DNA of 64,000 nucleotides from a virus, in the IMG/VR virus record IMGVR_UViG_3300044824_000082, positions 4,652 through 68,651 of that record; one strand, 5' to 3'. The notes beneath the pieces are model-generated. The model made no database searches. It was not told the DNA's origin and worked only from the letters and a program-made list of their open reading frames with translations. This document shows, in pieces, positions 23,505 to 50,542 of this stretch; the first letter of the stretch is position 1; each line of letters starts with the position of its first letter. Made by a program: the position numbers and the translations under genes.

Positions 23505-24127
23505 ATACCAAAGTTGGGACCAACTGGCGAGGGTTTACGGTGGGGCACAGGATTTCGGGCCACGAGAAGTGCGGGCGCATGCACGGCCATAACCTTCGGG
23601 TGCGGGTAGAGGTAGAAGGAGACATTGACGCCAAGACGGGAATGGTGGTGGATTTCGGGGTGCTGAGCATGGACTTGGCAGAGATTGTCGAGCCGTGGGA
23701 CCACAAGTTCCTCGCGCCAAAGGATTCTGCGAGGTTGGGATGGTGGTACGGGGCGCAGTGGCTTGAGAAAGAAGCAGCATGCAGTACGGTTCTGCCATCG
23801 CGGGCGTACTTGATTGACTGGGGGTACGTGTTGCCGGCAGAAGACGTGGTGTTGTTGAACCTGTCTGTCATCTCGTCCGAGAATCTGGCGCACTGGATTC
23901 TGTGGCAGTTGATTACGAAGCCGTGGGCGATGGGCAAGCTGGTTCGGGTTCAGGTAAGCGAGAATGGCGAGAACATCGCGGAGGCAAGTCATTTTGTTCA
24001 GAAATACAGCAGCACGTCAAGTTGGACGTACACTGGACAGGGGCAGAATTGGTATGTTGGCCTCAATGCGAACAACGCGGCTGCGCCAGCGGGGAACTGG
24101 GTTCCGACATGGATTTACCCCCCGTGA
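23501..24127 (+). CDS. queD: 6-carboxy-5,6,7,8-tetrahydropterin synthase (PTPS/QueD)
   Basis: GHRI..KCGRMHGHN, GMVVDFG, WDHKFL, SSENLA, VSE motifs. Confidence 0.9.
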   Translation: MNTKVGTNWRGFTVGHRISGHEKCGRMHGHNLRVRVEVEGDIDAKTGMVVDFGVLSMDLAEIVEPWDHKFLAPKDSARLGWWYGAQWLEKEAACSTVLPSRAYLIDWGYVLPAEDVVLLNLSVISSENLAHWILWQLITKPWAMGKLVRVQVSENGENIAEASHFVQKYSSTSSWTYTGQGQNWYVGLNANNAAAPAGNWVPTWIYPP

Positions 24128-24170: not shown

Positions 24171-27100
24171 ATGGCGGGCACGTTAACGTTCAAGGATAGT
24201 TTGGGAGGTTCAGTCGCAGCCTTCGAGAACGGAAGCGTTCCGGTGTCGATGGCCGTGCAAGGGACGGTTGTCGCTTCGTTGACAAGCCCGAACGACACGT
24301 TGACTTTCGGCGGCGGCGTGGGCGGGAGCATCACGGCGGACTTGAACCTCGCTAACCCGAATACGTGGACGGGCGCACAGACATTCAGTGGAGGAATTGG
24401 TGGCTCGTTCGCGGTGAATCCGGGCGGAACGGTTACGGCGGGAGTCTGGGCGGGAAGCAAGATTCCGAATTCCGAGTTGTCGGGGCCGTCCGTTACGACC
24501 ATTGCAGCGGGAACCGGAATTGGGGTTGCTTCCGGAGGCGGGGTTGGGCCGGCTACGATTTCAAATGCCGGTGTCGTGACGGTAAACGGTTTGACTGGGG
24601 CACCAGTGATTGCTGGCGGTGTTGGAGCAACCATTACTGCGGGCGGCGGAACGATAACGGTGGCGTTCACCGGCACGTCGGGGGTTGCTTCGGTAAATGG
24701 AGTGACAGGAAACCCGGTGATTGCTGGCGGGACGGGGGCTACGGTTACGGTGTCCGGTTCAACGATTACAGTCACTCCGACGGCAGTTCCTAACACAGCG
24801 TTGGCGGGGCCGTTGGTGAATGAGATTGTTGCGGGTTCGGGCATTACTATTGCGCCGTCCGGGGGAACCGGAACGGCAACGATTAGCGTGAGCAACTTTG
24901 TGTGGAAGGGGGCTCTTGGGGTGCCATTTGTTACGGTTTCGGCGGTGGGGACATCGACATCAACGTTGATTACAGTAATGAACAATGGCTGTAATTACGG
25001 GCCCGACACGCCGTTAACGGCAACGTGCGGGTTGCAAGAAGCGGAAAACACCGGGCTATCGTATTATGTGACAGCGGGAACGTACAATCTTGGAACCTCG
25101 CTTGTCGTCATCAATTCGAACAAGCAGATTTTCTGTGACCCCGGGGCGGTAATCAACGTGGCTTCGGGCGTGACGTTCCCAACGAAGGACGGTTGGAACG
25201 GAAGCACGGATTGGACGCAGATGGTAGTGTTTGCGAACTGTTCTAATGTGGATTGGTACGGTGGGATGTTGCAGAACCGGAACACAACGAATAACAGTAT
25301 CAGTGGATTTGTATTTGCGGGAAACACGTCAAATATCACTGTTTACAGCGACACAGTTCAGGGCATGACACGGTGGGCGCACTGGATTACTGGGTATGCG
25401 GCGATTGGCACGATTACGGCGGACGGCAACGTGTCGAACATTTCGATTATCTGCCCGACGGTGGTGAACTGTGGAAATACCACGACTCCCGACGGAGGAT
25501 TTCTCAAGACAGATTTGAACGCGACGACGGGAAGCATCTCCGGAATTTTCGTTCTTAACCCGCAGGGAACCGGGTTGAATTGTATGGGAATTGACTTTGA
25601 AAATGACGAGAGCAGCCCCGGGCTTTTGTCCAACGTTCGAATCATTGGCGGGAATCTGACGGCATCGAGCACGGTTTCAGCAGCGGGAGTAGGGTTGTTT
25701 GTCGAGGCGCAGCATGGTCTTCAGAGCGTTTCTGATATTGTCTTTAGGGACGTGAAGGTGAACGGGTTCACGGCGGGCTCGTATCTGTACACGGACAACC
25801 AGCGGGTAACGTACGACAATGTCACGTTCAACAGCCCGTTGAATGGAACGATTGGAGTGTTCATTTTGCCGGATAATGCCAGCACACTTTCGGTTCAGAA
25901 TCATTTCCAGATTCTCAATACGAAGGTTTTGGGATTCACAACGGCATACGAAGTCGACATGGTTCCGGGCTCGTCTGGAGTTGGTGTCAACGATGTCACG
26001 TTTGTGAACTGTGTCGCAGACGACAACGGCGCAGGAAGGATGACAGCGGGGCTTAAGCTTGTCAATGGCACCTCGAAGTGGATTAACACGCTTCACGCGG
26101 TGAACTGTAATTTCTCGCAGGTTGCGGCGGGCGGAACGGTTCTGGTTGAGAGTGGTTACAATTCGTCATACGCGACAGATGTGATTTTCGACGATTGTAC
26201 GGGAATCCCAAGCACGTTTTCGGGCGGGGTATCTCAGATTGTCGCGGGAACGGGTGTCTCGTTGAGTCCGGTGGGGGGAACCGGGACGGTAACAGTTTCG
26301 GTTACGGGGTTCTTGCCAGTTGGGGGCGCGGTTACATCGCTCAATGGGTTGCAAGGTTCTCTAACTGCAATCGGTGGAACCGGGGCCACGGTTACGACAG
26401 CGGGTTCGACAGTTATAGTTACGCCCACGGCGGTGCCTAACTCGGCGCTTGCGGGGCCGCTTGTGGCGGAAATCGTGGCGGGAACCGGCATCACGCTTTC
26501 TCCGGTAGGTGGAACGGGGACTGTAACAATTAATGCTTCGGGAACGCTTAGCGCAAGTTGGAATGTAGTGGGGGGAAGGCCGTTCTATACGTTCTCGCCA
26601 TCGACTACGGCGGACGGTTCGGACTTCATTGCGGGCTCGGATTTGATGAACAGTTTTGCGTCGTGTGTGGCGACATTGTGTTCGACTGTGACAGTGGGAG
26701 CCACGCTTTACATGAAGCCCGGAACGTACACGTTGAACGGGCCATTGTTTGTTACGGGGACATCCGAGCAACAGCCGTTACTTGTCATCGCAGACCCGGA
26801 AGCGAACTTTGTGATTGCGTCATCGCCTCCGGGGTGGGGTATTCAGTGTGGTTCGGGCACGCGGCGTCCGCATCTTATCTTTGCCAGCGCGTCTTATGTC
26901 GAGTGGCGGGGCGGGAAGTTCACGAGTTCGGTGGCCCGTGCGTCGCAGATTGGATACTTGGGCGGAATTCATATCGCGGGGGCGGTTGACCATCTTACGA
27001 TTCGTGACACGCATATTGGAGAAGCGGTAAACGGACTGTCGAACTTTGCGATTCACGCGACGGGCGGGTATGTGAATGGGTCCGGGTTGCCCACGGGGAT

Positions 27101-31893: not shown

Positions 31894-32382
31894 ATGCCAC
31901 CCTTCAAAGATTTAACCGGACAGCGATTCGGCAGACTGGTAGTTGTTAGGTTTGTGGGAAGAGAACGATACAAAGGCGCACTTTGGAATTGTAAGTGCGA
32001 TTGTGGGAAAGAAAAAGTCGTTCGTGGTGGAAGTTTGGGGTTGGGAAAAACGAAATCGTGCGGGTGTTTGCAACGAGAGAATGGGGCCACTGTTGGGCAT
32101 TCTCGTTGGAAAGGCGGGAAGACATCGGACGGGTATGTTCAGATACAGCGGGATGGCAAGCATTTGTTGGAACATCGGATTGTTATGGAGCGGTATCTCG
32201 GGCGGAAACTTTTGGAGGGGGAGAACGTCCATCACAAGAACGGGATTCGAAACGACAACCGAATTGAGAATCTGGAACTGTGGTCAACGTGGCAACCGAC
32301 AGGACAACGAGTCGAAGACAAAACCGAATGGGCAATCAGGTGGCTGAAGCAGTACAAACCCGAAGTGATGAGGGGGCCGTAA
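31894..32382 (+). CDS. HNH homing endonuclease
   Basis: DLTGQRFGRL..WNCKCDCG..KSCGC; EHRIVME..VHHKNGIRNDNRIENLELW. Confidence 0.92.
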   Translation: MPPFKDLTGQRFGRLVVVRFVGRERYKGALWNCKCDCGKEKVVRGGSLGLGKTKSCGCLQRENGATVGHSRWKGGKTSDGYVQIQRDGKHLLEHRIVMERYLGRKLLEGENVHHKNGIRNDNRIENLELWSTWQPTGQRVEDKTEWAIRWLKQYKPEVMRGP

Positions 32383-32415
32383 GGTTTAAGTAGGCAGGGA
32401 GAGGTAAAGGGTTTG

Positions 32416-35277
32416 ATGACGGACACTTACCGAGATTTGGTCATAACAGACGATAAAAATCGTTTGGTTGCAGGGTTCGCCAACGTTGCTGTTCTGGACA
32501 GGCAAGGGGACATCGTTCCGACAGACGCAATGGCGAAGGCCATGCTGGAATACATGAAGCGGGGCGGGGTGGTTCTTTTGGGCCACGCCAACAAGCCGGT
32601 GGGCAAGGTAGTCCAGTGGAGCATCCAGAAGCCCGAAGGTAGCGATGCCGATGGAATCCATATCATTGCAGCCATTGACACGGGCACCGAGCCCGGAGAC
32701 GAAGCGTGGAAGAAGCTCGGGAACAAGACGATTACGGGGTTTAGTATTGGTGGTTCGGCCAAGGAAAGCGAGAACGTGCGAGACAAGGCGGCGGTAGGTG
32801 GAGTCGCGCGGGAGCTTAAGGGCGTGGAACTCCATGAGATTAGTCTGGTGGAGATTCCCGCAAATCAGTTGGCAACGGTGTCGGACATCAGCGTGGCGAA
32901 GAGTTGTGATAACGGGACGTGTAAGATGGAGAAGGAAGTTCATCGTGGCCCATTTGCTGCGAAGGAAGAGGCTGACAAAACGGCCCAGAAGTTGAAGCAG
33001 GAAGGCTGGGCAGTTTATCGTATTGTTCAGGACGCGGATGGATGGTACATTGATTTCGGTTCTAAAGAGAACCCCGCGAACGAAACCGGGCGGGAGGAAA
33101 TGCATCCCAAGACAAAACAGCCAGTTTTGATGGCGCAGAAGACTCTTGAAGACGTGAAGGCGATGGGGTTGGATTGGGAGTCTTCGAAGGAAGAGGCGGA
33201 AAAGGCGGCGCAGGAAATGAAGGCGGAAGGGTTCAAGGTTTACGAAATCGTTCCCGATGGGGACGAGTGGCGGATTGACTACGGGCGGGAGGAGAATCCA
33301 GCGCGTAAGACGGTAGATGAAAAGACAAAGTATCCAGACCCATACATTCCCGGGCAAACGATTGATTCGGCGGAGATTCATCGGAGGGCCGAGGAGCTTA
33401 AGCGGCGTGGGGAAGAGAAGGCCGAGGGAGCCCCCGAAGACCCCACGGTGAAGGCCGAAGGTCCGATAGCGTTGGAGCAAGACCCGAACTACGACCAGAC
33501 GAAGTACGGGGTTCAGTCGATGGGGAAGGACGCCGTGGAAAAGGGCGGCAACGAGCAGGTTCGGCGTAAGGTTGGATTCGAGATTGCGGGGGCGAGAGTT
33601 CGTTCGGTGTCCCCAGACGGTTCGCGTGGGACTTGGCACCGCATGACGGACAGCGAGCGGGGCTTGAATCGTTTGTATGGTGCGGGAGAGTTGTCAGCGG
33701 CAACGAACATCCCGAGCGGGTTCCAGCCGGCGCAACCGATTCCGAAGAAGTCAGTGGAGGAGAAGGATGCGGTATCCACGGGCGAAGCGGGGGTAGAGAA
33801 CGCGCGGTTCAGTCCTCCGCAGAAGCCCGAAGACATTGAGAAGCCGTTCAAGTCGCGGGCGCAACAGCGGTGGATGTTCTGGGCGGACCCGAAGATGGCG
33901 CGAGAGTGGGCGCACAAGACGCCGAACATTCGAAGTTTGCCTGAGCGTGCCAGCAAGAAGGATGTCATTGATGGAGACGAGGCACGTCCAGTCGGGGCAG
34001 AGGACGGAAGCAATCTGGTTCCCGAGGCGGATAACAAGAGCCATCCTGTAACGGGCGAAGAGGCGTTCACGGAGAGGGCGGAAGGTCCGCAGGGTGACAA
34101 GTACGGTGAGTTCGGTGAGAAGAGCGTCGAGAAGCTCAACCCCACAGACCAAGAGGCCGGCGATGGGACGTGTACGTGGTGCAAGGTGAAGACGAAGGTT
34201 CACGAAGACCCGCGTTCGGGCAAGCCGATTTGCGAGGCGTGCGCGGCGGAGTTACCGAACAAGGCGATGCAGCCCGAGCAGTTGAAGCCGGGCTATCAGG
34301 AGGGAAAGGAGTCTTCGACAGGCAAGCCCGTGATGCACGAACAGAAGGGCGAGTTCGAGTGCGAGACGTGCGGGAAGAAGCCGATGTCGTTCGAGGAGTG
34401 CGTGGCGCACGAGAAGACGTGCAAGGAGATGCCTCCCGACAGTTGTGACGAGTGCGGCAAGAAGGGAACGACTCGGCGCGGGTTGTGCGAGCAGTGCGAG
34501 GCCGACGCGGTGAACGAGGCGCGAGCCAAGAAGGGGCTCACGTTTAACAAGGCGGGCAAGTGTCGTGGGTGCGGATGTGCCGGGCACGAACTCGTTGACG
34601 GGCGGTATTGTCAGTCGTGCTACGAAGAGTTGCAGTATTTGATGGCCGAAGCCCGTGAAGAGTTCGGGCAGAAGAAGGCATTGCAACAGCGGACAGGGGT
34701 GCCGAGCACGATTCAGGTGGCGGGTGGAACGGCCACGTACGTTGGGACAGAGGTAGAAGACAAGAACGGGCGATGGGACGACAGCTACAAGACGAGCGAT
34801 GGGTACTGGGTGATTCATCACGGCTCGGTGCACGACGTCTATCAGAAGTCGGTAGAGAAGGAGCCGCGTGATGCCACGGACGATGCGAATGTCGGGCCGA
34901 CTGGATTGGCGGCGGAGCCAGCGTTACAGTCGTCTTTGGATGCGAAGAAGGAGGGTTCAGGGACTCCTGCGAAGGGTTCGGGTGGTAGAACTATCCCAGC
35001 TTCGGGCGGGCGAACGGTGAAGCCAAGCGGCGGGCGCACCACGAAGTTGTTGATGGCGTTGGCGGGCGTGCGGAAAGAAGAGAAGTCGGTGAGCAAGGAG
35101 TTGCGGTTGGTTCGGGCGTTGGCGGGAGTGGAGCTTGAGAAGTCCGGTGCGATGTGTAAGCGGTGCGGTTCAAGTCGTCGGCGGCTGTACAAGCGGAAGA
35201 AGGGAATGCTCTGCGGAAAGTGTGTCAAGGCCATCCGAACCCGTGCGTTAAAGCAACTGGCGGGTATCAAGAAGTAG
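32416..35277 (+). CDS. HK97-type prohead protease with a long modular C-terminal extension
   Basis: VAGFANVAVLDRQGDIV, LLGH..PVGK, ITGFSIGG, LHEISLVEIPAN. Confidence 0.88.
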   Translation: MTDTYRDLVITDDKNRLVAGFANVAVLDRQGDIVPTDAMAKAMLEYMKRGGVVLLGHANKPVGKVVQWSIQKPEGSDADGIHIIAAIDTGTEPGDEAWKKLGNKTITGFSIGGSAKESENVRDKAAVGGVARELKGVELHEISLVEIPANQLATVSDISVAKSCDNGTCKMEKEVHRGPFAAKEEADKTAQKLKQEGWAVYRIVQDADGWYIDFGSKENPANETGREEMHPKTKQPVLMAQKTLEDVKAMGLDWESSKEEAEKAAQEMKAEGFKVYEIVPDGDEWRIDYGREENPARKTVDEKTKYPDPYIPGQTIDSAEIHRRAEELKRRGEEKAEGAPEDPTVKAEGPIALEQDPNYDQTKYGVQSMGKDAVEKGGNEQVRRKVGFEIAGARVRSVSPDGSRGTWHRMTDSERGLNRLYGAGELSAATNIPSGFQPAQPIPKKSVEEKDAVSTGEAGVENARFSPPQKPEDIEKPFKSRAQQRWMFWADPKMAREWAHKTPNIRSLPERASKKDVIDGDEARPVGAEDGSNLVPEADNKSHPVTGEEAFTERAEGPQGDKYGEFGEKSVEKLNPTDQEAGDGTCTWCKVKTKVHEDPRSGKPICEACAAELPNKAMQPEQLKPGYQEGKESSTGKPVMHEQKGEFECETCGKKPMSFEECVAHEKTCKEMPPDSCDECGKKGTTRRGLCEQCEADAVNEARAKKGLTFNKAGKCRGCGCAGHELVDGRYCQSCYEELQYLMAEAREEFGQKKALQQRTGVPSTIQVAGGTATYVGTEVEDKNGRWDDSYKTSDGYWVIHHGSVHDVYQKSVEKEPRDATDDANVGPTGLAAEPALQSSLDAKKEGSGTPAKGSGGRTIPASGGRTVKPSGGRTTKLLMALAGVRKEEKSVSKELRLVRALAGVELEKSGAMCKRCGSSRRRLYKRKKGMLCGKCVKAIRTRALKQLAGIKK

Positions 35278-35315: not shown

Positions 35316-35696
35316 GTGGAATCGAAATTGGTTCAGCGCGGTAGAAAGGGTTCATCGAAATTCCGAGATTTCCGGTTGACTCAAAGGCGCAGAGGAGTGA
35401 GAAAGAGTCAGCGTGAGTATTTCTTGAAGTCGAAGTACGGTTTGACTATTGCGGCATGGGAAGCTCTTTTCGAAGGGCAGGGAAGGGCCTGTGCAATTTG
35501 TTGTTCAAAATCTGCACGCGGTAAAGCGGGTGTGGGTTGGTGTACGGACCATGACCACGAAACAGGTGAGGTGCGTGGAATCATCTGTCAACCTTGTAAT
35601 TTGTTGGTTGGTTGGATTGAGAAAAGTGCCTGTCCCGAAGAAATTGCGGTAAGGGTGATGAAATATTTAAATCAGGCAAGGTTGCGGAAGGTATAA
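35316..35696 (+). CDS. endonuclease VII-like HNH nuclease
   Basis: KYGLT..QGRACAIC..DHDHETGEVRGIICQPCN. Confidence 0.9.
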   Translation: MESKLVQRGRKGSSKFRDFRLTQRRRGVRKSQREYFLKSKYGLTIAAWEALFEGQGRACAICCSKSARGKAGVGWCTDHDHETGEVRGIICQPCNLLVGWIEKSACPEEIAVRVMKYLNQARLRKV

Positions 35697-37636: not shown

Positions 37637-38383
37637 ATGGTATTCGAAGTAATCGACACCCCCGAAAAGGCATGGTTGTTAGGTTGGATTGCAACTGACG
37701 GGAACGTTGACAGGTATCAAGTCAGGATTATCCTGAAAGATGGCGACAGTGAACGTTACGTTTGTGACGAGTTCGTAAAGGTGGCCGGCGGCAAAGTGTT
37801 CTTGCGCGAAAAGACAAATGGGAAAGTAGAGCATTACAAGACGGTTACGTGGGAATTGAACGGGGTTGAAGAGTGTGAGAATCTCGTCAAACTTGGGATT
37901 GGCCCAAAGAAGTCATTGGTATTGGGTAAAGTGGCTGTTCCAGAACAGCTCCTTTGGCACTTCGTTCGTGGAGTGTTTGAGGGCGATGGTAGCGTTTGGC
38001 TGACAACGCAAACGGGGCGCGGCAGGCCGCAAATCTCGATTACAAGCGGCAGTAAAGTGTTCGCAGAATGGGTAGCCGAGATTACGGGCGGGAAGTTGTA
38101 TCCGAAGGAGAAGCCCCGGCGGAACACGTCGTACAGCATCGAGTTCGGCAACCGCGAGGTAATCGAGGCGTTTTACAAGCGGGCCTACGCAGACGCGGGT
38201 GAGTTCGTTCTTTTGCGAAAGAAGCAGAAGATTGAAGAGGGGCTCGGAGCATATTTCAGTTCTGAAGAGCGCGGTGAAATTGGACGGCAGAACGCAGTTC
38301 CGTGGGTAGAACAGTTCACGAAGAAGCACGGCATGAGTCCGATTGAGTGGAATCTGAAGAAAGGGGCGGGCCAATCACCTTAA
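37637..38383 (+). CDS. two-motif LAGLIDADG homing endonuclease
   Basis: AWLLGWIATDG and FVRGVFEGDGS; KKSL; LLRKKQK. Confidence 0.9.
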   Translation: MVFEVIDTPEKAWLLGWIATDGNVDRYQVRIILKDGDSERYVCDEFVKVAGGKVFLREKTNGKVEHYKTVTWELNGVEECENLVKLGIGPKKSLVLGKVAVPEQLLWHFVRGVFEGDGSVWLTTQTGRGRPQISITSGSKVFAEWVAEITGGKLYPKEKPRRNTSYSIEFGNREVIEAFYKRAYADAGEFVLLRKKQKIEEGLGAYFSSEERGEIGRQNAVPWVEQFTKKHGMSPIEWNLKKGAGQSP

Positions 38384-39860: not shown

Positions 39861-40874
39861 ATGCAAACAGACGAGTTGAGAAAGATAGTAGAGGTGCTGC
39901 GCGGTATGGAAGGAGACGGCACTACGTTAGTGTCGTACCTTGTAATGCCGAAGCGTTCCATAGCCGACGCCCGTGCCCGATTGGCGCGGGAAGTCGTAGA
40001 AGCCGAGAACATCAAGCTTCACAGCACACGACACGCTGTCGTAGCCTCGCTAACCAAGGCCCTGACAGCGGCCCGAGGCATGTCAGAAACCCCCGAGAAC
40101 GGTGTCGCGCTTTACGCCTCACCCACGGATACATGGCTCATCGAGCCACCCGAACCGATTCAGGCGAACGTGTATCGGTGCGGGAGCGAGTTCGTCTTGG
40201 AGCCGTTGGAGGCGATGCTGGCCTCGAAGGAGGTGTTCGCGTTGATAGTGATAGACAGGCAGGAGGCCACGTTGGGTTGGTTGCGGGGCAGTGCCATCGA
40301 AGAGGTGGCCTATTTCGAGTCCCGCGTGATGGGCAAGCACGATGCGGGCGGGCAATCGCAGCACCGCTTCGAGCGGCAAATAGAGCATCAGGCACACGAG
40401 TTCTTTGTGAAGGTGGCGGAGGCGGCAACGCAGGCTTTCGTGGACAAGAAGCTCACAGCCGTGGCAGTGGGAGGCCCGGGAGCCACGAAGGAGTTCTTTG
40501 TGAAGGAAGGGTATCTGGACTACAGACTGCAAGAAAAGGTGCTCCCTGCGTTTAATGTGGGGTACACGAACGAGGCGGGTTTGCGGGAACTGGCGCTAAA
40601 AGTAGAGGCACATCTGCCTGCGTTGGTGAGCGCCAAAGAGCGGGTGCTCCTGCAAGGGTTCTTTGCGGCGATTCGGGACGGCCGTGCAGCGTACGGCAAG
40701 GAACAGATTGCCCGGGCGATTGCGGAAGGGCGGGTAGAGAGTTTGATTCTGTCGCACGGGGTTCCGGTGCCAGCGGGATACAGTGGAGAGGTTCAGCGAG
40801 TCGGAGAGGCCGGGGACGAGGCGGCGGCGTTCAAGAAAGGCTTCGGTGGAATCGGCGCTTTGTTACGGTACTAA
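39861..40874 (+). CDS. prf1: archaeal-type class-1 peptide chain release factor (aRF1/eRF1)
   Basis: GTT (GTS loop), NIKL, PENG, YRCGSEF (YxCxxxF), KHDAGGQSQHRFER (GGQ), GGPG, FGGIGALLRY. Confidence 0.95.
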   Translation: MQTDELRKIVEVLRGMEGDGTTLVSYLVMPKRSIADARARLAREVVEAENIKLHSTRHAVVASLTKALTAARGMSETPENGVALYASPTDTWLIEPPEPIQANVYRCGSEFVLEPLEAMLASKEVFALIVIDRQEATLGWLRGSAIEEVAYFESRVMGKHDAGGQSQHRFERQIEHQAHEFFVKVAEAATQAFVDKKLTAVAVGGPGATKEFFVKEGYLDYRLQEKVLPAFNVGYTNEAGLRELALKVEAHLPALVSAKERVLLQGFFAAIRDGRAAYGKEQIARAIAEGRVESLILSHGVPVPAGYSGEVQRVGEAGDEAAAFKKGFGGIGALLRY

Positions 40875-42775: not shown

Positions 42776-42849
42776 GCTCCATTGGGGTAAATTGGGAAGC
42801 CTCGCAGGTTCTCGCCCTGTGGATGTGGGTTCGAATCCCGCATGGAGCA
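42776..42849 (+). tRNA. tRNA-Glu(CTC)
   Basis: GCAGG-TT CTC GC-CCTGT; acceptor GCTCCAT/ATGGAGC. Confidence 0.92.
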
Positions 42850-42853
42850 CCTT

Positions 42854-43158: not shown

Positions 43159-43159
43159 T

Positions 43160-43236
43160 GCACCTGTCGCCTAACTCGGATATGGCGCCACGCTTCGAAC
43201 GTGGAACGATTGCGGGTTCGAATCCCGTCAGGTGCG
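43160..43236 (+). tRNA. tRNA-Arg(TCG)
   Basis: CCACG-CT TCG AA-CGTGG. Confidence 0.92.
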
Positions 43237-43241
43237 TGTAT

Positions 43242-43544: not shown

Positions 43545-43712
43545 ATGAACGAGGAAGAGAGAACGAAATTAGAAGAGGAGTTCCCGATTGTAGACTGTAA
43601 AGGGTGCGGGCATTGTACATGTGCCCATGAACACAGTACAGGAAAATGTCATCTGGTTTGGTGGGACATGAAAGACATGTTAAGGTGTGACTGTCAGGAA
43701 TTCGTTCTATGA
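43545..43712 (+). CDS. small Zn-finger protein inside the tRNA array (not in ORF track)
   Basis: MNEEERTKLEEEFPIVDCKGCGHCTCAHEH..KC..CDCQEFVL; same module as 1584. Confidence 0.55.
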   Translation: MNEEERTKLEEEFPIVDCKGCGHCTCAHEHSTGKCHLVWWDMKDMLRCDCQEFVL

Positions 43713-43715
43713 AGC

Positions 43716-43787
43716 GCGTCCAAGGTGTTGACAGTGACATATCGGGCCTCCAACCCGAAGTACGGGGCGCACGTCCCCGTGGGCGCA
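43716..43787 (+). tRNA. tRNA-Gly(TCC), C33, non-canonical T-loop
   Basis: TCGGG-CC TCC AA-CCCGA; T-arm CGGGG-CGCACGT-CCCCG. Confidence 0.8.
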
Positions 43788-43790
43788 TAT

Positions 43791-43865
43791 GCCACCGTAG
43801 CGAAGTCCAGACATCGCGCCCGCCTCGTAAGCGGGAGTTCGCCGGAGCGAAGCCGGCCGGTGGCT
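43791..43865 (+). tRNA. tRNA-Thr(CGT), non-canonical T-loop
   Basis: CCCGC-CT CGT AA-GCGGG; T-loop AGCGAAG; U73. Confidence 0.85.
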
Positions 43866-43869
43866 TTAT

Positions 43870-43955
43870 GGACGGGTGGCCCAATCAGGAAAGGCGTCCG
43901 CCTCGAAAGCGGATTCTCAGCGATGAGAGTGGGGGTTCAAATCCCCTCCCGTCCG
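43870..43955 (+). tRNA. tRNA-Ser(CGA)
   Basis: TCCGC-CT CGA AA-GCGGA; long variable arm; G73. Confidence 0.92.
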
Positions 43956-43958
43956 TTC

Positions 43959-44030
43959 GCCGGCTTAGCCTAACAGGAGGGCGCCACCCTGAAGAGGTGG
44001 AGATTGGCGGTGCAAGTCCGCCAGCCGGCA
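43959..44030 (+). tRNA. tRNA-Phe(GAA)
   Basis: CCACC-CT GAA GA-GGTGG; T-loop TGCAAGT. Confidence 0.88.
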
Positions 44031-44032
44031 TT

Positions 44033-44105
44033 GGGCGTGGAGCTAATCAGCAGAAGCGCGTGTCTGATACACACGAAGTAGGAGGGGCGGCACCTCCCGC
44101 GCCCA
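44033..44105 (+). tRNA. tRNA-Ile(GAT), non-canonical T-loop
   Basis: CGTGT-CT GAT AC-ACACG; T-loop GGCGGCA; G8. Confidence 0.82.
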
Positions 44106-44108
44106 TGT

Positions 44109-44180
44109 GCCGAGGTAGCTCAGTAGCAGAGCACTCGACTGTTAATCGAGTACGCGAAGGTGCAAGTCCTTCTCTCGGCG
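44109..44180 (+). tRNA. tRNA-Asn(GTT)
   Basis: CTCGA-CT GTT AA-TCGAG; T-loop TGCAAGT; G73. Confidence 0.9.
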
Positions 44181-44181
44181 T

Positions 44182-44267
44182 GGAGGGATGGCCCAGTTGG
44201 CTACGGCGCGGGTTTGCTAAGCCCGTTTCGCGGAAGCGATTCGCCGGTTCGAATCCGGCTCCCTCCG
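44182..44267 (+). tRNA. tRNA-Ser(GCT)
   Basis: CGGGT-TT GCT AA-GCCCG; long variable arm. Confidence 0.92.
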
Positions 44268-44268
44268 T

Positions 44269-44339
44269 GTCGTCCGGGCAGGACAGCCATGCGGGGGCCC
44301 GCAGAGCCTCAGAACCCGGTGCAACTCCGGGGGACGACT
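44269..44339 (+). tRNA. tRNA-Cys(GCA), C33
   Basis: GGGGC-CC GCA GA-GCCTC; U73; T-loop TGCAACT; G8. Confidence 0.82.
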
Positions 44340-44530
44340 TGTGCCCAAAGTGCGGACACGTTCATTCGTTCTTGTCAGGGAAGTGTAACACTGTCTTGGA
44401 TAGATGGTTTGAGTGTGGGTGTCAAGGATGACGACGGACACGATAGTGACGGTAGTGGTGATTGGGATTCTTGCGGCGTGGATTACGTTCGTGATTCGTT
44501 ACTGGTCTAAGTTCATGGAGTGGTTGGAAT

Positions 44531-44905
44531 ATGAAGCTCCCGATTAAGGAACACAAAAGCAAGCACCCTGCGAGTGATGTCAAGACGGCGTCACTGATGG
44601 CCTTCGTGGTGCGGCGGGGGAAGGTAGTGACGGTGGGTTACAATCGAAGGGTGTTTCCGAACGGAGAGGCGTTCTCCCAGCACGCGGAGGAAGCGGCGCT
44701 CAAGAAGGCGGGAAGTCGGGCGAAGGGAGCCACGCTGTACGTGCTTCGGTTCAAGAAGGACGGTAGCCGTGGGATGGCGCGTCCCTGTGGACGGTGCCAC
44801 GACACGTTGAATCGGGCGGGAATCGTGCGGGTGTTCTTTTCGCTGGACAACGTGGACAGGTGGGGAAAGTTGATATGGCAGAACGCACAATGGATAGAGG
44901 TATAG
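44531..44905 (+). CDS. Zn-dependent cytidine/dCMP/tRNA deaminase-superfamily protein inside the tRNA array
   Basis: GYN, HAEEAAL (HxE), ATLYV, ARPCGRC (PCxxC); stop codon overlaps tRNA-Gln. Confidence 0.9.
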   Translation: MKLPIKEHKSKHPASDVKTASLMAFVVRRGKVVTVGYNRRVFPNGEAFSQHAEEAALKKAGSRAKGATLYVLRFKKDGSRGMARPCGRCHDTLNRAGIVRVFFSLDNVDRWGKLIWQNAQWIEV

Positions 44906-44977
44906 CGCCGTGGAGTAGCTGGACAAGCCCACCCGGCTCTGACCCGGGAGACAGAGGTTCGAATCCTCTCGGCGCTA
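44904..44977 (+). tRNA. tRNA-Gln(CTG)
   Basis: CCCGG-CT CTG AC-CCGGG; A1-U72 (archaeal Gln identity). Confidence 0.92.
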
Positions 44978-44984
44978 TCCTTAC

Positions 44985-45059
44985 GGGCGTGTCGTCTAAT
45001 CTGGTTCAGGATAGCTGGCCCCAGACCAGCAGATGTCGGTTCAAATCCGGCCTCGCCCA
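44985..45059 (+). tRNA. tRNA-Trp(CCA), C33
   Basis: GCTGG-CC CCA GA-CCAGC; one acceptor mismatch. Confidence 0.82.
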
Positions 45060-45061
45060 TC

Positions 45062-45136
45062 GGGCGTGTCGCCTATTGGGATGGCACCTGTCTTATAAGC
45101 TGGACAAAGGAGCGAGTTCGATTCTCGTCACGCCCA
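45062..45136 (+). tRNA. tRNA-Ile(TAT)
   Basis: CCTGT-CT TAT AA-GCTGG (one U.U mismatch); acceptor GGGCGTG as in Ile(GAT); 8-nt variable region. Confidence 0.75.
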
Positions 45137-45140
45137 TTGT

Positions 45141-45213
45141 GGGGCTGTGGTGTAACTTGGAAGCATCCGGCGCTCGGAACGCCGAGGTACAGGTTCAAAT
45201 CCTGACAGTCCCA
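45141..45213 (+). tRNA. tRNA-Pro(CGG)
   Basis: CGGCG-CT CGG AA-CGCCG; GGGGC acceptor start. Confidence 0.9.
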
Positions 45214-45547
45214 TTATGAGCGAACTGAAGTGGAGGACGTGTCAGAAGTGCGGCGAGGAACACGTCTTTTCCAGTGAATTGAGATGCGTGAGTTGTCGAG
45301 CGGCGCCCTTGCTCAAGCGGCTCAAGGAACTCGGGTGGGAGAACGGTGTGATTTACGTGGACGGGCTTCCGGTTGGGAAGAAGGCTTAAATAGAAGTGGA
45401 GATGTGATGAGGAGAATGAGTGTGTGTCCGGTTTGCGCGAGGCCAAGTCAAGAGAAAGTTCTGAGCGAGCCTGCAATGGTGCAGCTTTCTTGTGGTCATG
45501 TAGTGCACGAAGGAAAGGTTAAGTAGTCGTGCGGTGATTTGAAAAGC

Positions 45548-47308: not shown

Positions 47309-47704
47309 ATGGCAGACTATCCCGGCTGGCTCAGTGGTGAGAAAGCCAAACTGGAAGCGGAGGTTCGGCGCCGGCAGTTGGGGCGGGTAGCCGAGCACTT
47401 GCGGCGCGAGATTCAGAGAATGGACCTTGACGACACGGGACGGTTGATGCGTTCGATTCGAGTGGACGAGAGAGCGGGTACGGTGACGATGGACGCTCCG
47501 TATTCAAAGTTCGTGAACGATGGAAGACGGCCGGGAAGGGCGCCCCCTTACGAGCAAATCCACAGGTGGGTAGGGCACAAGTTGGGCATTACGCAGCCGA
47601 AAAGGTCACGGAACGTGACGTGGGCCATCATGATGAAGATTAAGAAGAAGGGAATCCCCGGGACGTGGATTCTTGAGAGGGCGTGGAAGCGGGCACTCCG
47701 ATGA
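47309..47704 (+). CDS. HK97 gp10-like neck/tail completion protein
   Basis: DTGRLMRSI..APYSKFVNDGRRPG..PP..WV..K..KKGIPG. Confidence 0.75.
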   Translation: MADYPGWLSGEKAKLEAEVRRRQLGRVAEHLRREIQRMDLDDTGRLMRSIRVDERAGTVTMDAPYSKFVNDGRRPGRAPPYEQIHRWVGHKLGITQPKRSRNVTWAIMMKIKKKGIPGTWILERAWKRALR

Positions 47705-47747: not shown

Positions 47748-48668
47748 ATGACAGTCACGGCAATCTATTCGAGTGCGGGTTTCACTTGGGACTTGGCTAC
47801 GGAGACGAGCTTTGCGTCGGGTACGGTAGGGGCGTGGCCGGGAGATTTGGGAGTGCTGGGACTGGGTGCAAACTTTACCAGCTACGAACTGGACAACGCT
47901 TGGCTGGAAGCTTATTCGCTCGGGTTGCGCCAGCCGCAGGCGTATTACACGCAGGGACTTTCGGCACAGACGAACCTCGAATTCTTGCTTTGCAACGATG
48001 GGTGGAACTTTTGGAACCTCGTCCTGCCGAATCTGGGTAGTACAACCGCTGCGACTTACGCGGTGAGCACGGTGCTGGGGAGCACAGTTAACCCCGTGAC
48101 AGCGCAGATTAGTCTCGGGACGCCGCAGGGGCAAAAGTTTGTTTTGGGCGGCATCATCTTTACGCAAGCCAAAGTCACGGTTCCGAACGCAGATGCGATT
48201 AAGGTAACGTTGTCGGGGCTGGGCACCACGTTTTCCAGCACGACGGGTTCGGTTGCCCCGGGGACGATTCCGACTCAGTTGTTGACTTGGAAAGACGTGA
48301 CAATCCAAGCGGGCACAGGCGTTGGTTCGATTGCGGCATCGTTCGTTCAGAACTTGGACTTTACAGTTACCACGGGCGCGAAGCAGTACTATGTGATTGG
48401 CTCGCCGTACTACCAGGCGTGGTTGCCGTTGGAACAGTACGTCGAAGTTAACGTTACGGCGTTCCATCAGGACGCGAATATGGAGTACTTGTTCGATTAC
48501 TTGGCGGCCACGCAGAACGTAGGCGGGACGGTTGTGGTGAATATCGGGACGCACACTGCAACGTTTGCTGGCTGTTATGTGAAGAAGGGAGTCATGTCCG
48601 GGCTTAACGGCGCAAAGGAAGTCATGGACGCGTTGACCTTCCGGGCGCTCAATCTAACCATCGTTTAA
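47748..48668 (+). CDS. major tail tube protein (putative)
   Basis: ETSFAS, YSLGLRQP, YYVIGS motifs; size; precedes chaperone and tape measure genes. Confidence 0.7.
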   Translation: MTVTAIYSSAGFTWDLATETSFASGTVGAWPGDLGVLGLGANFTSYELDNAWLEAYSLGLRQPQAYYTQGLSAQTNLEFLLCNDGWNFWNLVLPNLGSTTAATYAVSTVLGSTVNPVTAQISLGTPQGQKFVLGGIIFTQAKVTVPNADAIKVTLSGLGTTFSSTTGSVAPGTIPTQLLTWKDVTIQAGTGVGSIAASFVQNLDFTVTTGAKQYYVIGSPYYQAWLPLEQYVEVNVTAFHQDANMEYLFDYLAATQNVGGTVVVNIGTHTATFAGCYVKKGVMSGLNGAKEVMDALTFRALNLTIV

Positions 48669-48806: not shown

Positions 48807-49109
48807 ATGGCAGAACAGGAAGTAGAGTATGAGATAGACGGAAAGATGGTGAAGTTTCACCTTCGGCGAGTGAAGTTCGGTGAGTGGCAAAAGGTGATGC
48901 AGAACACGGGCAGTGGAAACGTGGAAATGCTCGGGAACATCACGAAGGGCAAGATTGACACCACGCGCCTCATGGACGACTTGATGAAGCTGTCCGTGAC
49001 GGGGGACAGGGATTTCCATGACTTGTCTATCGGAGACGGAATGGACTTGCAGAACAAGGTTCTCGACTTGAATGGTATGGGTGAGAAGAAGTCCTTTCGA
49101 GTTGAATGA
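48807..49109 (+). CDS. tail assembly chaperone (gpG-like)
   Basis: between tube and tape measure genes; ends in TCC TTT CGA. Confidence 0.7.
   Translation: MAEQEVEYEIDGKMVKFHLRRVKFGEWQKVMQNTGSGNVEMLGNITKGKIDTTRLMDDLMKLSVTGDRDFHDLSIGDGMDLQNKVLDLNGMGEKKSFRVE
49092..49100 (+). other. putative +1 ribosomal frameshift site TCC_TTT_CGA
   Basis: in frame at the end of the chaperone ORF; +1 slip (TTT to TTC) joins the downstream ORF. Confidence 0.7.
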
Positions 49110-49284
49110 AATAGACAAACGCATCTTCGAAGCCGATTTCGTCTTCGCCCGCAACTTTAATATATCACGGGCGGACTTGTTAGATATGTCTTACGTAGAG
49201 GCGATGTACTGGTTGGAGTTGCTGAAGCGTGAGAACCTAGAAACCAATGCGAGGATGGAAGCGGCCAGCAGGACAAGAGTTTAA
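49096..49284 (+). CDS. +1 frame extension of the tail chaperone (gpGT-like)
   Basis: overlapping +1 frame FELNEIDKRIFEADF..LLDMSYVEAMYWLELL, typical of gpT segments. Confidence 0.65.
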   Translation, partial: FELNEIDKRIFEADFVFARNFNISRADLLDMSYVEAMYWLELLKRENLETNARMEAASRTRV

Positions 49285-49318: not shown

Positions 49319-50542
49319 ATGCCCGACGATACCGACGAGTTCAAAGTCAAAGTCAGTGTTGAAGGGCTGGATAAGATAGGGGAGCAGATTGCCGCCCAAG
49401 TGCAAAAGGCAATCGCTATGATTCGGACGCCCGGCATGCAAGTCACGGGCTTGGTTGGCGGAGCCGAAGGAAAGGGGAAAGACGAGGCGCTGACGAGGCT
49501 CGGTGCGGTTGTCAGTCATTTAACGACGGTGGTAGGCGGTTTGGCAAACGCAAGCTTGTCCGGGGCCGTCCAAGGGCTTGCCGGTGGCGAGGGCATCATG
49601 CGCGAAGGTGGGCCAATGATGGGTGTCTTGGGATTGATTGCGGGGATACTGGAAGGGCTGGCTCCGATTAAGGCCATCATGTCGGTGATTCAGGCAATTC
49701 TATCGTTGATATTCATGCCGTTGGCGATGGTGCTAATGGCGATTCTCATGCCATTTTTGATGCCGATTCTGATGTTGTTGGGGAAGCTACCGTGGGCCGC
49801 AATCTTCGCAGCGATTATGCTCATTGAGAAAGGCATAACGTGGGGACTGAATGAGATTGCGGCGGGCATCACTTGGTTTGTGGGTTGGCTGCCCGGAGCC
49901 ATTGGCGCGGTTATTTCGTTCTTTCAAGGGGTGGCGGGCGATGTGATGGGAATACTCAGTACCATTTGGGGCGATTTACAAGTGGCGGCGGGTGCCATTG
50001 TCTCGGCATGGAACTGGCTTACGGGCGTAGCGGGGGCCGTGTTCAACGACATTCGTACCGCGATAATGGGAGTCTGGGATTTCATGGGCCAGATTTACAC
50101 TGTTTGGAGTGGCATATTTGCGGACGTGTTCAATGACATTCGTGCGGCATTATTGGGCGCGTGGGGGGTGTTGACAACGCTTTGGAACTGGTTCGATACA
50201 GTGATTGGGGACATTTGGAAAGGGATTGGAGACGGCATCAATATGATTCGAACGATTCTGAACGACATCGCCGGCGCGCTCAAAGCGGTTGGAAATGCGG
50301 TAAATCCCTCGAACTGGGGTAGTGAACTCGCCGGAATGTTCCAGACAGGGGGCATCGTGCCCAAGACGGGGTTGGCGTTGGTGCACGCGGGAGAAATGAT
50401 TATCCCGTCAGGAGGCGGGGCGCCTTCGATTAATGTGACGGTGACGGGGAACACAATAAGTTCTGCGATGGACTTGAACAATATCGCAAATCAGGTGGCG
50501 CAGCAGATTGCGAACAACGCCCGAAGGTTGAGAACATGGTAG
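49319..50542 (+). CDS. tape measure protein (short, 407 aa)
   Basis: aromatic-periodic helical repeats; FQTGGIVPKTGLALVHAGEMIIP; INVTVTGN. Confidence 0.85.
   Translation: MPDDTDEFKVKVSVEGLDKIGEQIAAQVQKAIAMIRTPGMQVTGLVGGAEGKGKDEALTRLGAVVSHLTTVVGGLANASLSGAVQGLAGGEGIMREGGPMMGVLGLIAGILEGLAPIKAIMSVIQAILSLIFMPLAMVLMAILMPFLMPILMLLGKLPWAAIFAAIMLIEKGITWGLNEIAAGITWFVGWLPGAIGAVISFFQGVAGDVMGILSTIWGDLQVAAGAIVSAWNWLTGVAGAVFNDIRTAIMGVWDFMGQIYTVWSGIFADVFNDIRAALLGAWGVLTTLWNWFDTVIGDIWKGIGDGINMIRTILNDIAGALKAVGNAVNPSNWGSELAGMFQTGGIVPKTGLALVHAGEMIIPSGGGAPSINVTVTGNTISSAMDLNNIANQVAQQIANNARRLRTW

What the first reader, a model, noticed from the sequence alone, without database searches (positions are those of the whole stretch)
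49092..49284. +1 frameshift motif UCC_UUU_CGA in the tail chaperone, with both relevant tRNAs virus-encoded
Seen: the chaperone ORF ends AAG TCC TTT CGA GTT GAA TGA, and the +1 frame continues TTC GAG TTG AAT GAA for about 60 codons up to the tape measure gene. Known: G/GT chaperones normally use -1 shifts; UUU_CG +1 sites are known from influenza PA-X and, as I recall, proposed for some haloarchaeal tailed viruses. The virus encodes tRNA-Phe(GAA) with an altered T-loop and tRNA-Arg(TCG), which read the P- and A-site codons. Inference: viral tRNAs could tune the G:GT ratio.
Basis: partly seen in the sequence, partly recalled or inferred. Interest (0 to 1): 0.55.

Follow-up and report, generated by a model that had tools for sequence, protein, structure and literature searches.

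The report
Plus-one frameshift in archaeal tail chaperone
A tailed virus of peat archaea very probably makes the long form of its tail-assembly helper protein when a few ribosomes slip one base forward at UCC_UUU_CGA, a signal already predicted (never demonstrated) for salt-loving archaeal viruses, so this is a well-supported new example and the proposed link to the virus's own tRNAs is not supported.

Summary
A 100-codon ORF (48807-49109) lies between the tail-tube gene and the tape-measure gene and ends AAG TCC TTT CGA GTT GAA TGA. The +1 frame is open from 49072 to 49284, so the two frames overlap by only 35 nt.

Evidence for a +1 slip at UUU_CGA:
- The same CC_TTT_CGA_G stands in a relative with 51% protein identity, inside otherwise unalignable sequence.
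- That relative has no start codon in the second frame from 25 codons before to 32 codons after the site.
- Phe97 is one of only three invariant columns in 12 homologues. It lies in a variable, low-confidence tail and is always followed by R, Q, P or L.
- Two other metagenome assemblies carry the identical site, so it is not an assembly error.

A distant member of the same protein family reaches its second ORF through a classical A_AAA_AAA -1 site.

The mechanism is not new. HSTV-2 carries the identical AAG_TCC_TTT_CG and is annotated with a joined CDS. A 2020 paper already proposed TTT-CGC as a +1 site in HF1-group haloviruses.

The tRNA idea is not supported. The virus encodes 22 tRNAs for 18 amino acids, and HSTV-2 has the motif with only tRNA-Gln. 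The altered T-loop is shared by 3 of the 22 tRNAs.

The parts
47309..47704 (+). tail completion / HK97 gp10-like protein (131 aa)
   Evidence: Pfam HK97-gp10_like E=6.4e-4 (21.1 bits, just under the 21.4 cut-off); phrog_5 tail completion 3.9e-5
47748..48668 (+). tail tube protein (306 aa)
   Evidence: Pfam Phage_tube_2 E=1.9e-6, 28.1 bits over the 27 cut-off; 47% identical to the L001 counterpart
48807..49109 (+). G: tail assembly chaperone, short form (100 aa)
   Evidence: Lies between the tube and tape-measure genes. No Pfam or PHROG hit. AF2 model pLDDT 75.3. In BFVD, 18 of the 50 listed rows are named tail-assembly or tape-measure chaperone; best hit E=5e-5. In PDB, 3klu prob 0.96 E=0.13 and the HK97 chaperone 2ob9 at rank 2, E=1.
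49092..49101 (+). proposed +1 shift site UCC_UUU_CGA_G (E, P and A-site codons plus the first base after)
   Evidence: Sequence. CC_TTT_CGA_G is identical in L001 and L003. F97 is invariant in 12 homologues. AAG_TCC_TTT_CG is identical in HSTV-2, where the CDS is annotated as joined.
49096..49284 (+). T: +1-frame extension (62 codons plus stop); the G-T product is predicted to be 97 + 61 = 158 aa
   Evidence: Frames. The T body is 54-58% identical in L001 and P0005, with ARNxxISRADLLDM conserved. P0017 lies beside P0003.
49319..50542 (+). tape measure protein (407 aa)
   Evidence: phrog_58 9.2e-8, phrog_305 2.6e-7 and other tape-measure families; 45% identical to the L001 counterpart
43159..43237 (+). 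tRNA-Arg(UCG), reads the 0-frame A-site codon CGA (context only; link to the shift not supported)
43959..44030 (+). tRNA-Phe(GAA), T-loop TGCAAGT; reads the P-site codon (context only; link not supported)
42776..42851 (+). tRNA-Glu(CUC), reads the +1-frame A-site codon GAG (context only; noted here, untested)
   Evidence: GAG follows the site in both the window and L001

Best explanation
The two ORFs are the G and T parts of a lambda-type tail assembly chaperone.

Shown:
- The gene order is tail completion, tail tube, G, T, tape measure.
- G has a chaperone-like predicted fold.
- T is a conserved coding region in the +1 frame.
- The site CC_UUU_CGA_G is conserved.

Inferred:
- Most ribosomes read G to its UGA stop and release the 100-aa chaperone.
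- A minority pause with tRNA-Phe(GAA) on UUU in the P site, where the third position is a G:U wobble, while the A-site codon CGA waits for its tRNA.
- The tRNA-Phe re-pairs one base forward on UUC, a full Watson-Crick match. GAG is then read, and translation continues for 61 more residues to give a 158-aa G-T fusion with the junction ...KKSF|ELNEIDK...
- By analogy with lambda gpG/gpGT (established knowledge, via Atkins 2016), the G part binds the tape measure and the T part recruits the tube protein.

The efficiency and any stimulator are unknown. No RNA structure near the site stands out.
For: 1. Synteny and identity of the neighbours. G has a chaperone-like fold.

2. The overlap window is only 35 nt, and UUU_CGA is the only re-pairing site in it.

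3. L001 and L003 (G 51% identical) carry ACC TTT CGA GAG. The 9-10 identical bases are flanked by unalignable sequence.

4. In L001 and L003 the +1 frame has no ATG, GTG or TTG from -25 to +32 codons around the site. The conserved first half of T therefore cannot be reached by ordinary initiation or coupling.

5. In 12 homologues only G25, L73 and F97 are invariant. F97 lies in a tail that is otherwise variable and has low pLDDT (block 91-100 mean 51). It is followed by R (6), Q (4), P (1) or L (1), all of which can be encoded by a codon starting with C.

6. P0005, a T homologue called from an upstream ATG, reads ..PPFV.. in the +1 frame. That is compatible with xCC_TTT_CGT (inference).

7. 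L004, whose G is homologous by hhalign (prob 96.5%, E=9e-10), has GCA AAA AAA GAG. This is the -1 heptamer A_AAA_AAA, with the downstream ORF in the -1 frame running into the tape-measure gene. So a recoded second ORF is a feature of the family even where the direction differs.

8. Five of 5 hafunavirus records looked at have TTT_CGC 2-7 codons before the G stop, with T in the +1/-2 frame (HSTV-2, plus 4 taken from the 47 matching records). HSTV-2 shares AAG_TCC_TTT_CG and is annotated as a joined CDS whose length fits +1.

9. Dyall-Smith et al. 2020 (PMC7230728, passages) proposed exactly this TTT-CGn +1 motif for the HF1 group.

10. The site sequence is confirmed by two further assemblies.
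Against: - No protein or ribosome data exist for this virus or, according to a 2021 review, for any +1 frameshift in Archaea (PMC8211752, passages).
- In the window itself an ATG (49072, -8 codons), a GTG (-5) and a TTG (49102, +2, used by the record's own gene call P0004) stand in the T frame. A crude Shine-Dalgarno probe does not separate them from real starts.
- CGA is not rare in the virus's own genes (5.7 per 1000, 13% of Arg codons). The virus supplies the tRNA that reads it, which should lower pausing. The host's codon usage is unknown.
- Avoidance of in-frame TTT_CGN elsewhere is not reproducible. In the window 1 of 16 F-R(CGN) pairs uses TTT (binomial P=0.01). In the relative's 46.5 kb contig 3 of 11 do (P=0.65).
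- DNA of relatives was obtained for only two lineages with the +1 layout. The rest of the conservation argument is at protein level.
- No significant RNA structure lies near the site (z about 0). The one shared hairpin lies about 50 nt downstream and shows no covariation.
Confidence: 0.8

Rival explanations
1. T is made on its own by independent or coupled initiation at ATG 49072, GTG 49081 or TTG 49102. The last overlaps the G stop as TTGAATGA. No fusion protein is made.
For: These start codons exist in the window and in L002. The record's own gene call starts at TTG 49102 (P0004). P0005 was called from an ATG at the equivalent -9 position. AAGGT lies 11 nt upstream of ATG 49072.
Against: - L001 and L003 have ACG at that place and no start codon from -25 to +32 codons, yet they conserve the whole T body.
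- Gene callers chose three different starts in three relatives: P0004, P0005 and P0017, the last from an internal Met.
- The +1 ATG is a by-product of the 0-frame Asn-Gly codons AAT GGT, read directly from the sequence.
- The rival does not explain the invariant Phe or the conserved CC_TTT_CGA_G.
Confidence: 0.1
2. The shift is -2 and not +1. It leads to the same frame, and GenBank records of many hafunaviruses are labelled this way.
For: +1 and -2 lead to the same frame.
Against: Moving back two bases puts tRNA-Phe on CCU and tRNA-Arg on UUC, so no re-pairing is possible (read from the sequence). Moving forward one base gives a perfect UUC match. Within the 35-nt overlap no sequence supports -2 re-pairing. 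The HSTV-2 joined CDS length (832 nt) fits a skipped base. Dyall-Smith 2020 argues for +1.
Confidence: 0.04
3. The virus-encoded tRNA-Phe(GAA, G55 T-loop) and tRNA-Arg(UCG) are there to set or time the G:GT ratio.
For: Both tRNAs exist, and so does tRNA-Glu(CUC) for the +1-frame A-site codon GAG. The tRNA cluster lies on the same strand between the head and tail modules, 3.6 kb upstream of G. A-site tRNA supply is a known determinant of +1 shifting (Ty1-type; established knowledge).
Against: - 22 tRNAs cover 18 amino acids, so the co-occurrence is expected.
- The anticodons track the virus's favoured codons generally: TTG, AAG, ACG, TCG, CAG, CCG, GAG.
- HSTV-2 has the same motif and only tRNA-Gln.
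- The relative's fragment has only tRNA-Pro.
- The G55 T-loop is shared with tRNA-Asn, and tRNA-Thr is altered in a similar way.
Confidence: 0.1
4. The frame break is a sequencing or assembly error in a single G-T gene.
For: The break lies at a short T run.
Against: - The sequence is identical in L002 (a JGI contig that differs from the window at other positions) and in a contig of run X5.
- Three close homologues and six more distant ones all stop 1-6 codons after the Phe.
- L001 and L003 have the same two-frame layout.
- No in-frame fused homologue turned up among the 11 profile hits or in the near-length searches.
Confidence: 0.01

Closest known systems
Tail chaperone pair of HSTV-2 and the HF1-group haloarchaeal myoviruses (Hafunaviridae), with a predicted +1 frameshift at TTT-CGC (Dyall-Smith et al. 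2020, PMC7230728; HSTV-2 '+1 very likely' in Atkins et al. 2016, PMC5009743)
   Same: - Two ORFs lie between the tube and tape-measure genes, and the second is in the +1 frame.
- An in-frame UUU_CGN lies a few codons before the first stop.
- HSTV-2 shares the 11 nt AAG_TCC_TTT_CG.
- The host domain is Archaea.
- There is no conventional slippery heptamer, and no experimental proof in either case.
   Different: - G and T show no detectable sequence similarity to HSTV-2 (hhalign prob 0.5% and 2.2%).
- Here there is a tube protein without a recognised sheath (siphovirus-like layout), against myoviruses there.
- Peat metagenomes against hypersaline hosts.
- The A-site codon is CGA followed by GAG, against CGC followed by AGA.
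- UUU is not rare in this virus (11.5 per 1000). The 2020 paper stresses rare UUU and AGA in Halorubrum.
Influenza A PA-X +1 frameshift cassette UCC_UUU_CGU, and the amalgavirus UUU_CGN motif
   Same: The nine bases UCC_UUU_CGN are identical in form. The P-site tRNA-Phe slips from UUU to UUC while a CGN codon waits in the A site. Source: review passages and search listing only.
   Different: Eukaryotic ribosomes and RNA viruses, with unrelated products. In influenza the CGU rarity and the UCC contribution were measured; nothing was measured here.
Phage lambda gpG/gpGT and the conserved tail-chaperone frameshift of long-tailed dsDNA phages (Xu, Hendrix and Duda 2004; seen only as cited)
   Same: Gene position, sizes, the two-form logic and a chaperone-like fold.
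   Different: Lambda and most phages use a -1 slip on an X_XXY_YYZ heptamer. This clade uses +1. Its distant relative L004 keeps a classical A_AAA_AAA -1 site.

Membership tests
G/GT-type frameshifted tail assembly chaperone (Xu et al. 2004 type) | Two short overlapping ORFs directly between the major tail (tube) gene and the tape-measure gene | tested here: met
   Tube 47748-48668, G 48807-49109, T to 49284, tape measure from 49319. Same order in L001.
G/GT-type frameshifted tail assembly chaperone (Xu et al. 2004 type) | The second ORF has no conserved start of its own and is conserved as protein | tested here: met
   L001 and L003 have no start from -25 to +32 codons. T is 54-58% identical across three lineages. 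The window itself does have ATG, GTG and TTG nearby.
G/GT-type frameshifted tail assembly chaperone (Xu et al. 2004 type) | A conserved shift-prone sequence in the overlap | tested here: met
   CC_TTT_CGA_G in 2 of 2 lineages with DNA and the +1 layout (window and L002; L001 and L003). F invariant in 12 of 12 proteins.
G/GT-type frameshifted tail assembly chaperone (Xu et al. 2004 type) | The first ORF has the chaperone fold or family | tested here: inconclusive
   No Pfam or PHROG hit. In BFVD only 1 row has E<=0.001, and it is an uncharacterised archaeal virus protein; 18 of the 50 listed rows are named chaperones, at E from 1e-3 to 0.13. In PDB, 3klu E=0.13 and the HK97 chaperone 2ob9 E=1.
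G/GT-type frameshifted tail assembly chaperone (Xu et al. 2004 type) | The fusion protein is actually made, at a low ratio to G | not testable with these tools
   No RNA run holds the stretch, and no proteome data are at hand.
UUU_CGN +1 frameshift sites (PA-X, amalgaviruses, predicted in Hafunaviridae) | In-frame UUU followed by CGN, with the continuing ORF in the +1 frame | tested here: met
UUU_CGN +1 frameshift sites (PA-X, amalgaviruses, predicted in Hafunaviridae) | The motif is conserved against a diverged background | tested here: met
UUU_CGN +1 frameshift sites (PA-X, amalgaviruses, predicted in Hafunaviridae) | The A-site codon is slowly decoded (rare codon or scarce tRNA) in the host | not testable with these tools
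   The host is unknown. In viral genes CGA is 5.7 per 1000 and not the rarest Arg codon (AGA is 2.7), and the virus encodes tRNA-Arg(UCG).
UUU_CGN +1 frameshift sites (PA-X, amalgaviruses, predicted in Hafunaviridae) | The motif is avoided in-frame elsewhere in the genome, as expected if it is shift-prone | tested here: inconclusive
   Window: 1 found against 6.6 expected; 1 of 16 F-R(CGN) pairs uses TTT, P=0.01; TTTCG by codon phase 1/49/30. Relative G001: 3 of 11, P=0.65.

The most novel reading that the evidence does not exclude
UUU_CGN is a general +1 shift signal of archaeal and eukaryotic-type ribosomes. Sequence-unrelated tail-chaperone families of archaeal viruses have recruited it independently: halophile myoviruses, this peat clade, and methanogen viruses according to unchecked notes of this scan. 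In this virus the late-module tRNA cluster, with tRNA-Arg(UCG) for the 0-frame A site, tRNA-Glu(CUC) for the +1-frame A site and a tRNA-Phe with a G55 T-loop, actively sets or times the G:GT ratio. That would be the first case of a virus tuning its own programmed frameshift with its own tRNAs.
Probability: 0.1. Interest if true: 0.65.

Novelty: new member of a known kind. Interest (0 to 1): 0.33.

Why it matters
According to a 2021 review, programmed +1 frameshifting has never been demonstrated in Archaea. The only printed proposals I found for archaeal tail chaperones concern haloviruses.

This case adds four things:
- The same UCC_UUU_CGN signal occurs in a chaperone family with no detectable similarity to the halovirus one.
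- It occurs in a non-halophilic habitat.
- The Phe codon is kept invariant across a family whose distant member uses a classical -1 heptamer instead.
- This strengthens the view that the signal acts on archaeal ribosomes in general.

It also gives annotators a concrete rule: join G and T at UUU_CGN, rather than calling T from arbitrary starts as three pipelines did here.

It does not open a new experimental route, because the virus is uncultivated. The cultivable HF1 and HF2 viruses are the better test bed.

Tried and rejected
- No similarity of the region or the tube protein to the 50,697 phage records.
- Single-protein and close-alignment scans of viral, genome and metagenome collections found nothing. 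Only broader sub-alignments gave L001-L004. The tape-measure alignment found only the L001 contig again.
- RNA stimulator: folds up- and downstream of the site are no better than shuffles (z from -0.3 to +0.7). The one shared 8-bp hairpin about 50 nt downstream lies in conserved coding sequence and shows no covariation.
- No RNA holder is listed among the sequencing runs.
- A frameshift at the stop codon (prfB-like) is rejected. GAA_UGA and CAC_UGA offer no re-pairing, and the stop's distance from the Phe varies.
- Transcriptional slippage is rejected. No long homopolymer lies in the 35-nt window.
- Genome-wide avoidance of TTT_CGN was not reproduced in the relative. The zero counts of GAT_CGN and GGT_CGN come from general GATC and GGTC avoidance.
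- Homology of G or T to HSTV-2 was not detected.
- Similarity of T to the L004 -1-frame ORF is not significant, although MAFFT aligns them.
- The Shine-Dalgarno probe is not discriminating.
- Host identification failed. The atlas taxa for the aRF1 homologue are mixed archaeal phyla.
- Sencilo 2013 and Pietila 2013 are not held, so I did not see what they wrote about the HSTV-2 site.

Full report
**What is there**

The window is the last 64,000 bases of a 68,651-bp single-contig virus record with 55% G+C. Several proteins mark it as a tailed virus of an archaeon:
- An aRF1 homologue (TIGR03676, 308 bits against a cut-off of 234.7).
- RadB-like, Hef/XPF-like and PriL-like proteins.
- A family B DNA polymerase.
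- HK97-type head genes (portal, prohead protease, major head protein).

Parts of the region are held by 8 peat metagenome runs from 8 studies. One of them may be the source of the record.

The gene order around the finding is:

| Coordinates | Feature | Support |
|---|---|---|
| 47309-47704 | HK97 gp10-like tail completion protein | Pfam just under cut-off; phrog_5 |
| 47748-48668 | Tail tube protein | Phage_tube_2, over the cut-off |
| 48807-49109 | G, 100 codons | position, fold |
| 49072-49284 | Second ORF, +1 frame | conserved as protein |
| 49319-50542 | Tape measure protein | several PHROG tape-measure families |

G ends AAG TCC(49092) TTT(49095) CGA(49098) GTT GAA TGA. The +1 frame is closed by TGA at 49069-71 and open to TAA at 49282-84. 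Any frame change must therefore occur in the 35 nt from 49072 to 49106.

Within that stretch only UUU_C allows a P-site tRNA to re-pair. tRNA-Phe(GAA) moves from UUU, where the third position is a G:U wobble, to UUC. The predicted fusion is 97 + 61 = 158 residues with the junction ...KKSF|ELNEIDK.

The site is not an assembly artefact:
- A JGI contig (L002), which differs from the window at other positions, has the identical site.
- A contig of run X5 covers 49019-49169 with no difference and no indel.

**Is G a tail chaperone?**

Pfam and PHROGs give nothing for G or T. An AlphaFold2 model built on 12 homologues has mean pLDDT 75.3, and the last ten residues average 51.

Against BFVD, the best match is an uncharacterised protein of an uncultured archaeal virus (E=5e-5, TM 0.67). 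Of the 50 listed rows, 18 are named tail-assembly or tape-measure chaperones, including HHTV-2, HCTV-1, ChaoS9 and Mu FS-gp41. Only one row carries another functional name.

Against the PDB, the best match is 3klu (YqbN; prob 0.96, E=0.13), and the HK97 chaperone 2ob9 is at rank 2 with E=1.

The fold evidence is suggestive, not strong. Gene position and the two-frame layout carry most of the assignment.

**Conservation**

The word-index search found only two close homologues of G (67-69% identical). A profile search of 1.84 billion representatives gave 11 hits, 9 of them short proteins of the same size.

In the 12-sequence alignment only three columns are invariant: G25, L73 and F97. F97 sits in the otherwise variable C-terminal tail. 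The tails read:
- SFRVE
- PFRAPQ
- PFRSE
- NFRTESK
- TFREEAH
- NFRGADGQG
- SFQ (three sequences)
- FFQ
- SFPKA
- GFL

The residue after the Phe is always R, Q, P or L, all of which can be encoded by a codon starting with C. That is what a conserved UUU_C would produce. It is not what a disordered tail would be expected to keep for structural reasons.

DNA was recovered for one further +1-layout lineage. It comprises L001 (an IMG/VR contig of 46.5 kb) and the near-identical JGI contig L003, with G 51% identical to the window's. There G ends ACC TTT CGA GAG GAA GCT CAC TGA. The 9-10 bases CC_TTT_CGA_G are identical to the window and are flanked by unalignable sequence.

T is conserved as protein:
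- It is 54-58% identical across the window, L001 and P0005.
- The block ARNxxISRADLLDM is kept.
- P0017 lies beside P0003.

**No own start for T**

In L001 and L003 the +1 frame has no ATG, GTG or TTG from 25 codons before to 32 codons after the site. The window's +1-frame ATG at 49072 is a by-product of the 0-frame Asn-Gly codons AAT GGT. L001 has AAC GGG there, giving ACG.

Gene callers picked three different starts in three relatives:
- TTG at +2 codons in the window's own record (P0004).
- ATG at -9 codons in P0005.
- An internal Met in P0017.

This is the pattern of an ORF without a real start.

**A relative that shifts the other way**

L004 (IMG/VR) encodes a G-like protein homologous to the family (hhalign prob 96.5%, E=9e-10). 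It contains GCA AAA AAA GAG, the classical -1 heptamer A_AAA_AAA. The downstream ORF is in the -1 frame and overlaps the start of the tape-measure gene.

The similarity of that ORF to T is not significant, so I count it only as the positional counterpart. The family therefore keeps a recoded second ORF while the direction of the shift differs.

**Already known**

I fetched the HSTV-2 record. Its chaperone is annotated as a joined CDS of 832 nt, which fits one skipped base. Its G ends GCG AAG TCC TTT CGC AGA GAC GGG GGC GGC GAG TAG. These are the same 11 bases, AAG_TCC_TTT_CG, as in the window.

The query matched 47 hafunavirus records. I fetched four more: HF1, HRTV-14, Hardygib1 and HJTV-1. 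All four end AAG TTT CGC AGA TAG with the second ORF in the +1/-2 frame, so 5 of 5 sampled carry the motif.

What the papers say:
- Dyall-Smith et al. 2020 (PMC7230728, passages) describe the TTT-CGC motif within a perfectly conserved 15-bp region. They link it to the TTT-CGn +1 motif of eukaryotic viruses and say experiments are needed.
- Atkins et al. 2016 (PMC5009743, passages) call the HSTV-2 case 'very likely +1'. They give UCC_UUU_CGU as the minimal influenza cassette and note that UUU_Ynn is +1-prone in bacteria.
- A 2021 review (PMC8211752, passages) states that only -1 frameshifting has been demonstrated in Archaea.

G and T of this virus show no detectable similarity to those of HSTV-2. 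The shared signal is therefore either convergent or older than any recognisable sequence similarity.

Unchecked notes of this scan list further archaeal-virus chaperones with UUU_CGN. I treat these as leads only.

**The tRNA idea**

The tRNAs are real. The Phe T-loop is indeed TGCAAGT, with G at the place of U55. Several points count against a specific link to the frameshift:
- tRNA-Asn has the same loop and tRNA-Thr has AGCGAAG, so 3 of 22 are altered.
- The 22 tRNAs cover 18 of 20 amino acids. Their anticodons follow the virus's preferred codons, and CGG is its commonest Arg codon.
- HSTV-2 has the identical motif and only tRNA-Gln annotated.
- The relative's 46.5 kb fragment has only tRNA-Pro, though CheckV rates it only 36% complete.
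- A virus-supplied tRNA-Arg(UCG) would be expected to shorten the A-site pause and so lower shifting, not raise it.

The +1-frame A-site codon is GAG in both lineages, and the virus encodes tRNA-Glu(CUC).

None of this amounts to evidence for tuning.

**Tests that gave mixed or negative results**

In-frame TTT_CGN:
- In 49 crude genes of the window it is scarce: 1 found against 6.6 expected.
- Only 1 of 16 Phe-Arg(CGN) pairs uses TTT, against 35% TTT overall (binomial P=0.01).
- ATT_, GTT_ and CTT_CGN are enriched.
- TTTCG occurs 49 and 30 times in the other two codon phases.
- In the relative's contig the same test gives 3 of 11 (P=0.65). I therefore do not count avoidance as support.

The zero counts of GAT_CGN and GGT_CGN reflect a complete absence of GATC (0 against about 231 expected) and a depletion of GGTC.

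No RNA structure near the site differs from shuffled controls.

**Verdict**

A +1 programmed frameshift at UCC_UUU_CGA that produces a G-T chaperone is the best explanation (confidence about 0.8). It is a new member of a kind already predicted in print for haloarchaeal viruses, found here in an unrelated chaperone family and another habitat. The tRNA-tuning addition is unsupported (about 0.1).

Noticed in passing
window 39861-40874 (+): The virus encodes an aRF1 homologue (TIGR03676, 308 bits, over the cut-off; profile positions 3-313 of 403). GGQ is present, NIKL stands in place of NIKS, and a YxCxxxF-like YRCGSEF is present. It lies just upstream of the tRNA cluster, between the head and tail modules. 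Its role (enforcing or changing stop-codon reading?) is unknown.
   Followed up: partly
whole genome (G000) and relative G001: GATC occurs 0 times against about 231 expected. CTAG occurs 2 times against about 52. GGTC occurs 48 times against about 239, with a strand asymmetry (GACC 95 of 178). The relative's 46.5 kb contig also has 0 GATC and 1 CTAG. This looks like restriction-site avoidance or a DNA-modification footprint.
   Followed up: partly
window 43791-43865, 43959-44030, 44108-44181: Three of the 22 viral tRNAs lack the canonical TTC of the T-loop: Phe(gaa) and Asn(gtt) have TGCAAGT, and Thr(cgt) has AGCGAAG. The other 19 have TTCRA.
   Followed up: partly
window 44531-44905 (+): A cytidine/deoxycytidylate-deaminase-family ORF (Pfam dCMP_cyt_deam_1, 9.5e-11) lies inside the tRNA cluster. 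It could be a nucleotide or a tRNA deaminase.
   Followed up: no
window 23501-24127 (+): A QueD/6-pyruvoyl-tetrahydropterin synthase homologue (PF01242, 1.4e-22) suggests 7-deazaguanine-type modification chemistry.
   Followed up: no
window 31894-32382, 35316-35696, 37637-38383: HNH, endonuclease VII and LAGLIDADG ORFs are scattered through the head module. A 954-aa ORF (32413-35277) starts with a prohead protease domain.
   Followed up: no
window 24171-29555 (+): A 1794-aa ORF has no Pfam, PHROG or NCBIfam hit. Several other large ORFs (5650-8514, 10382-12598, 20453-22840) are equally blank.
   Followed up: no
L004 3270-3276: A distant member of the same chaperone family has a textbook A_AAA_AAA -1 slippery heptamer. 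The second ORF is in the -1 frame and overlaps the tape-measure start.
   Followed up: partly
L008, L010 (MZ334492, MZ334509): GenBank notes call the hafunavirus chaperone event a '-2 frameshift', while the sequence (AAG TTT CGC AGA TAG) fits a +1 slip at UUU_C. Annotation is inconsistent between records.
   Followed up: partly
window 43709-44431, 44794-45219 (+): Long 'ORFs' across the tRNA cluster are artefacts of the G+C-rich tRNA genes and not genes.
   Followed up: no
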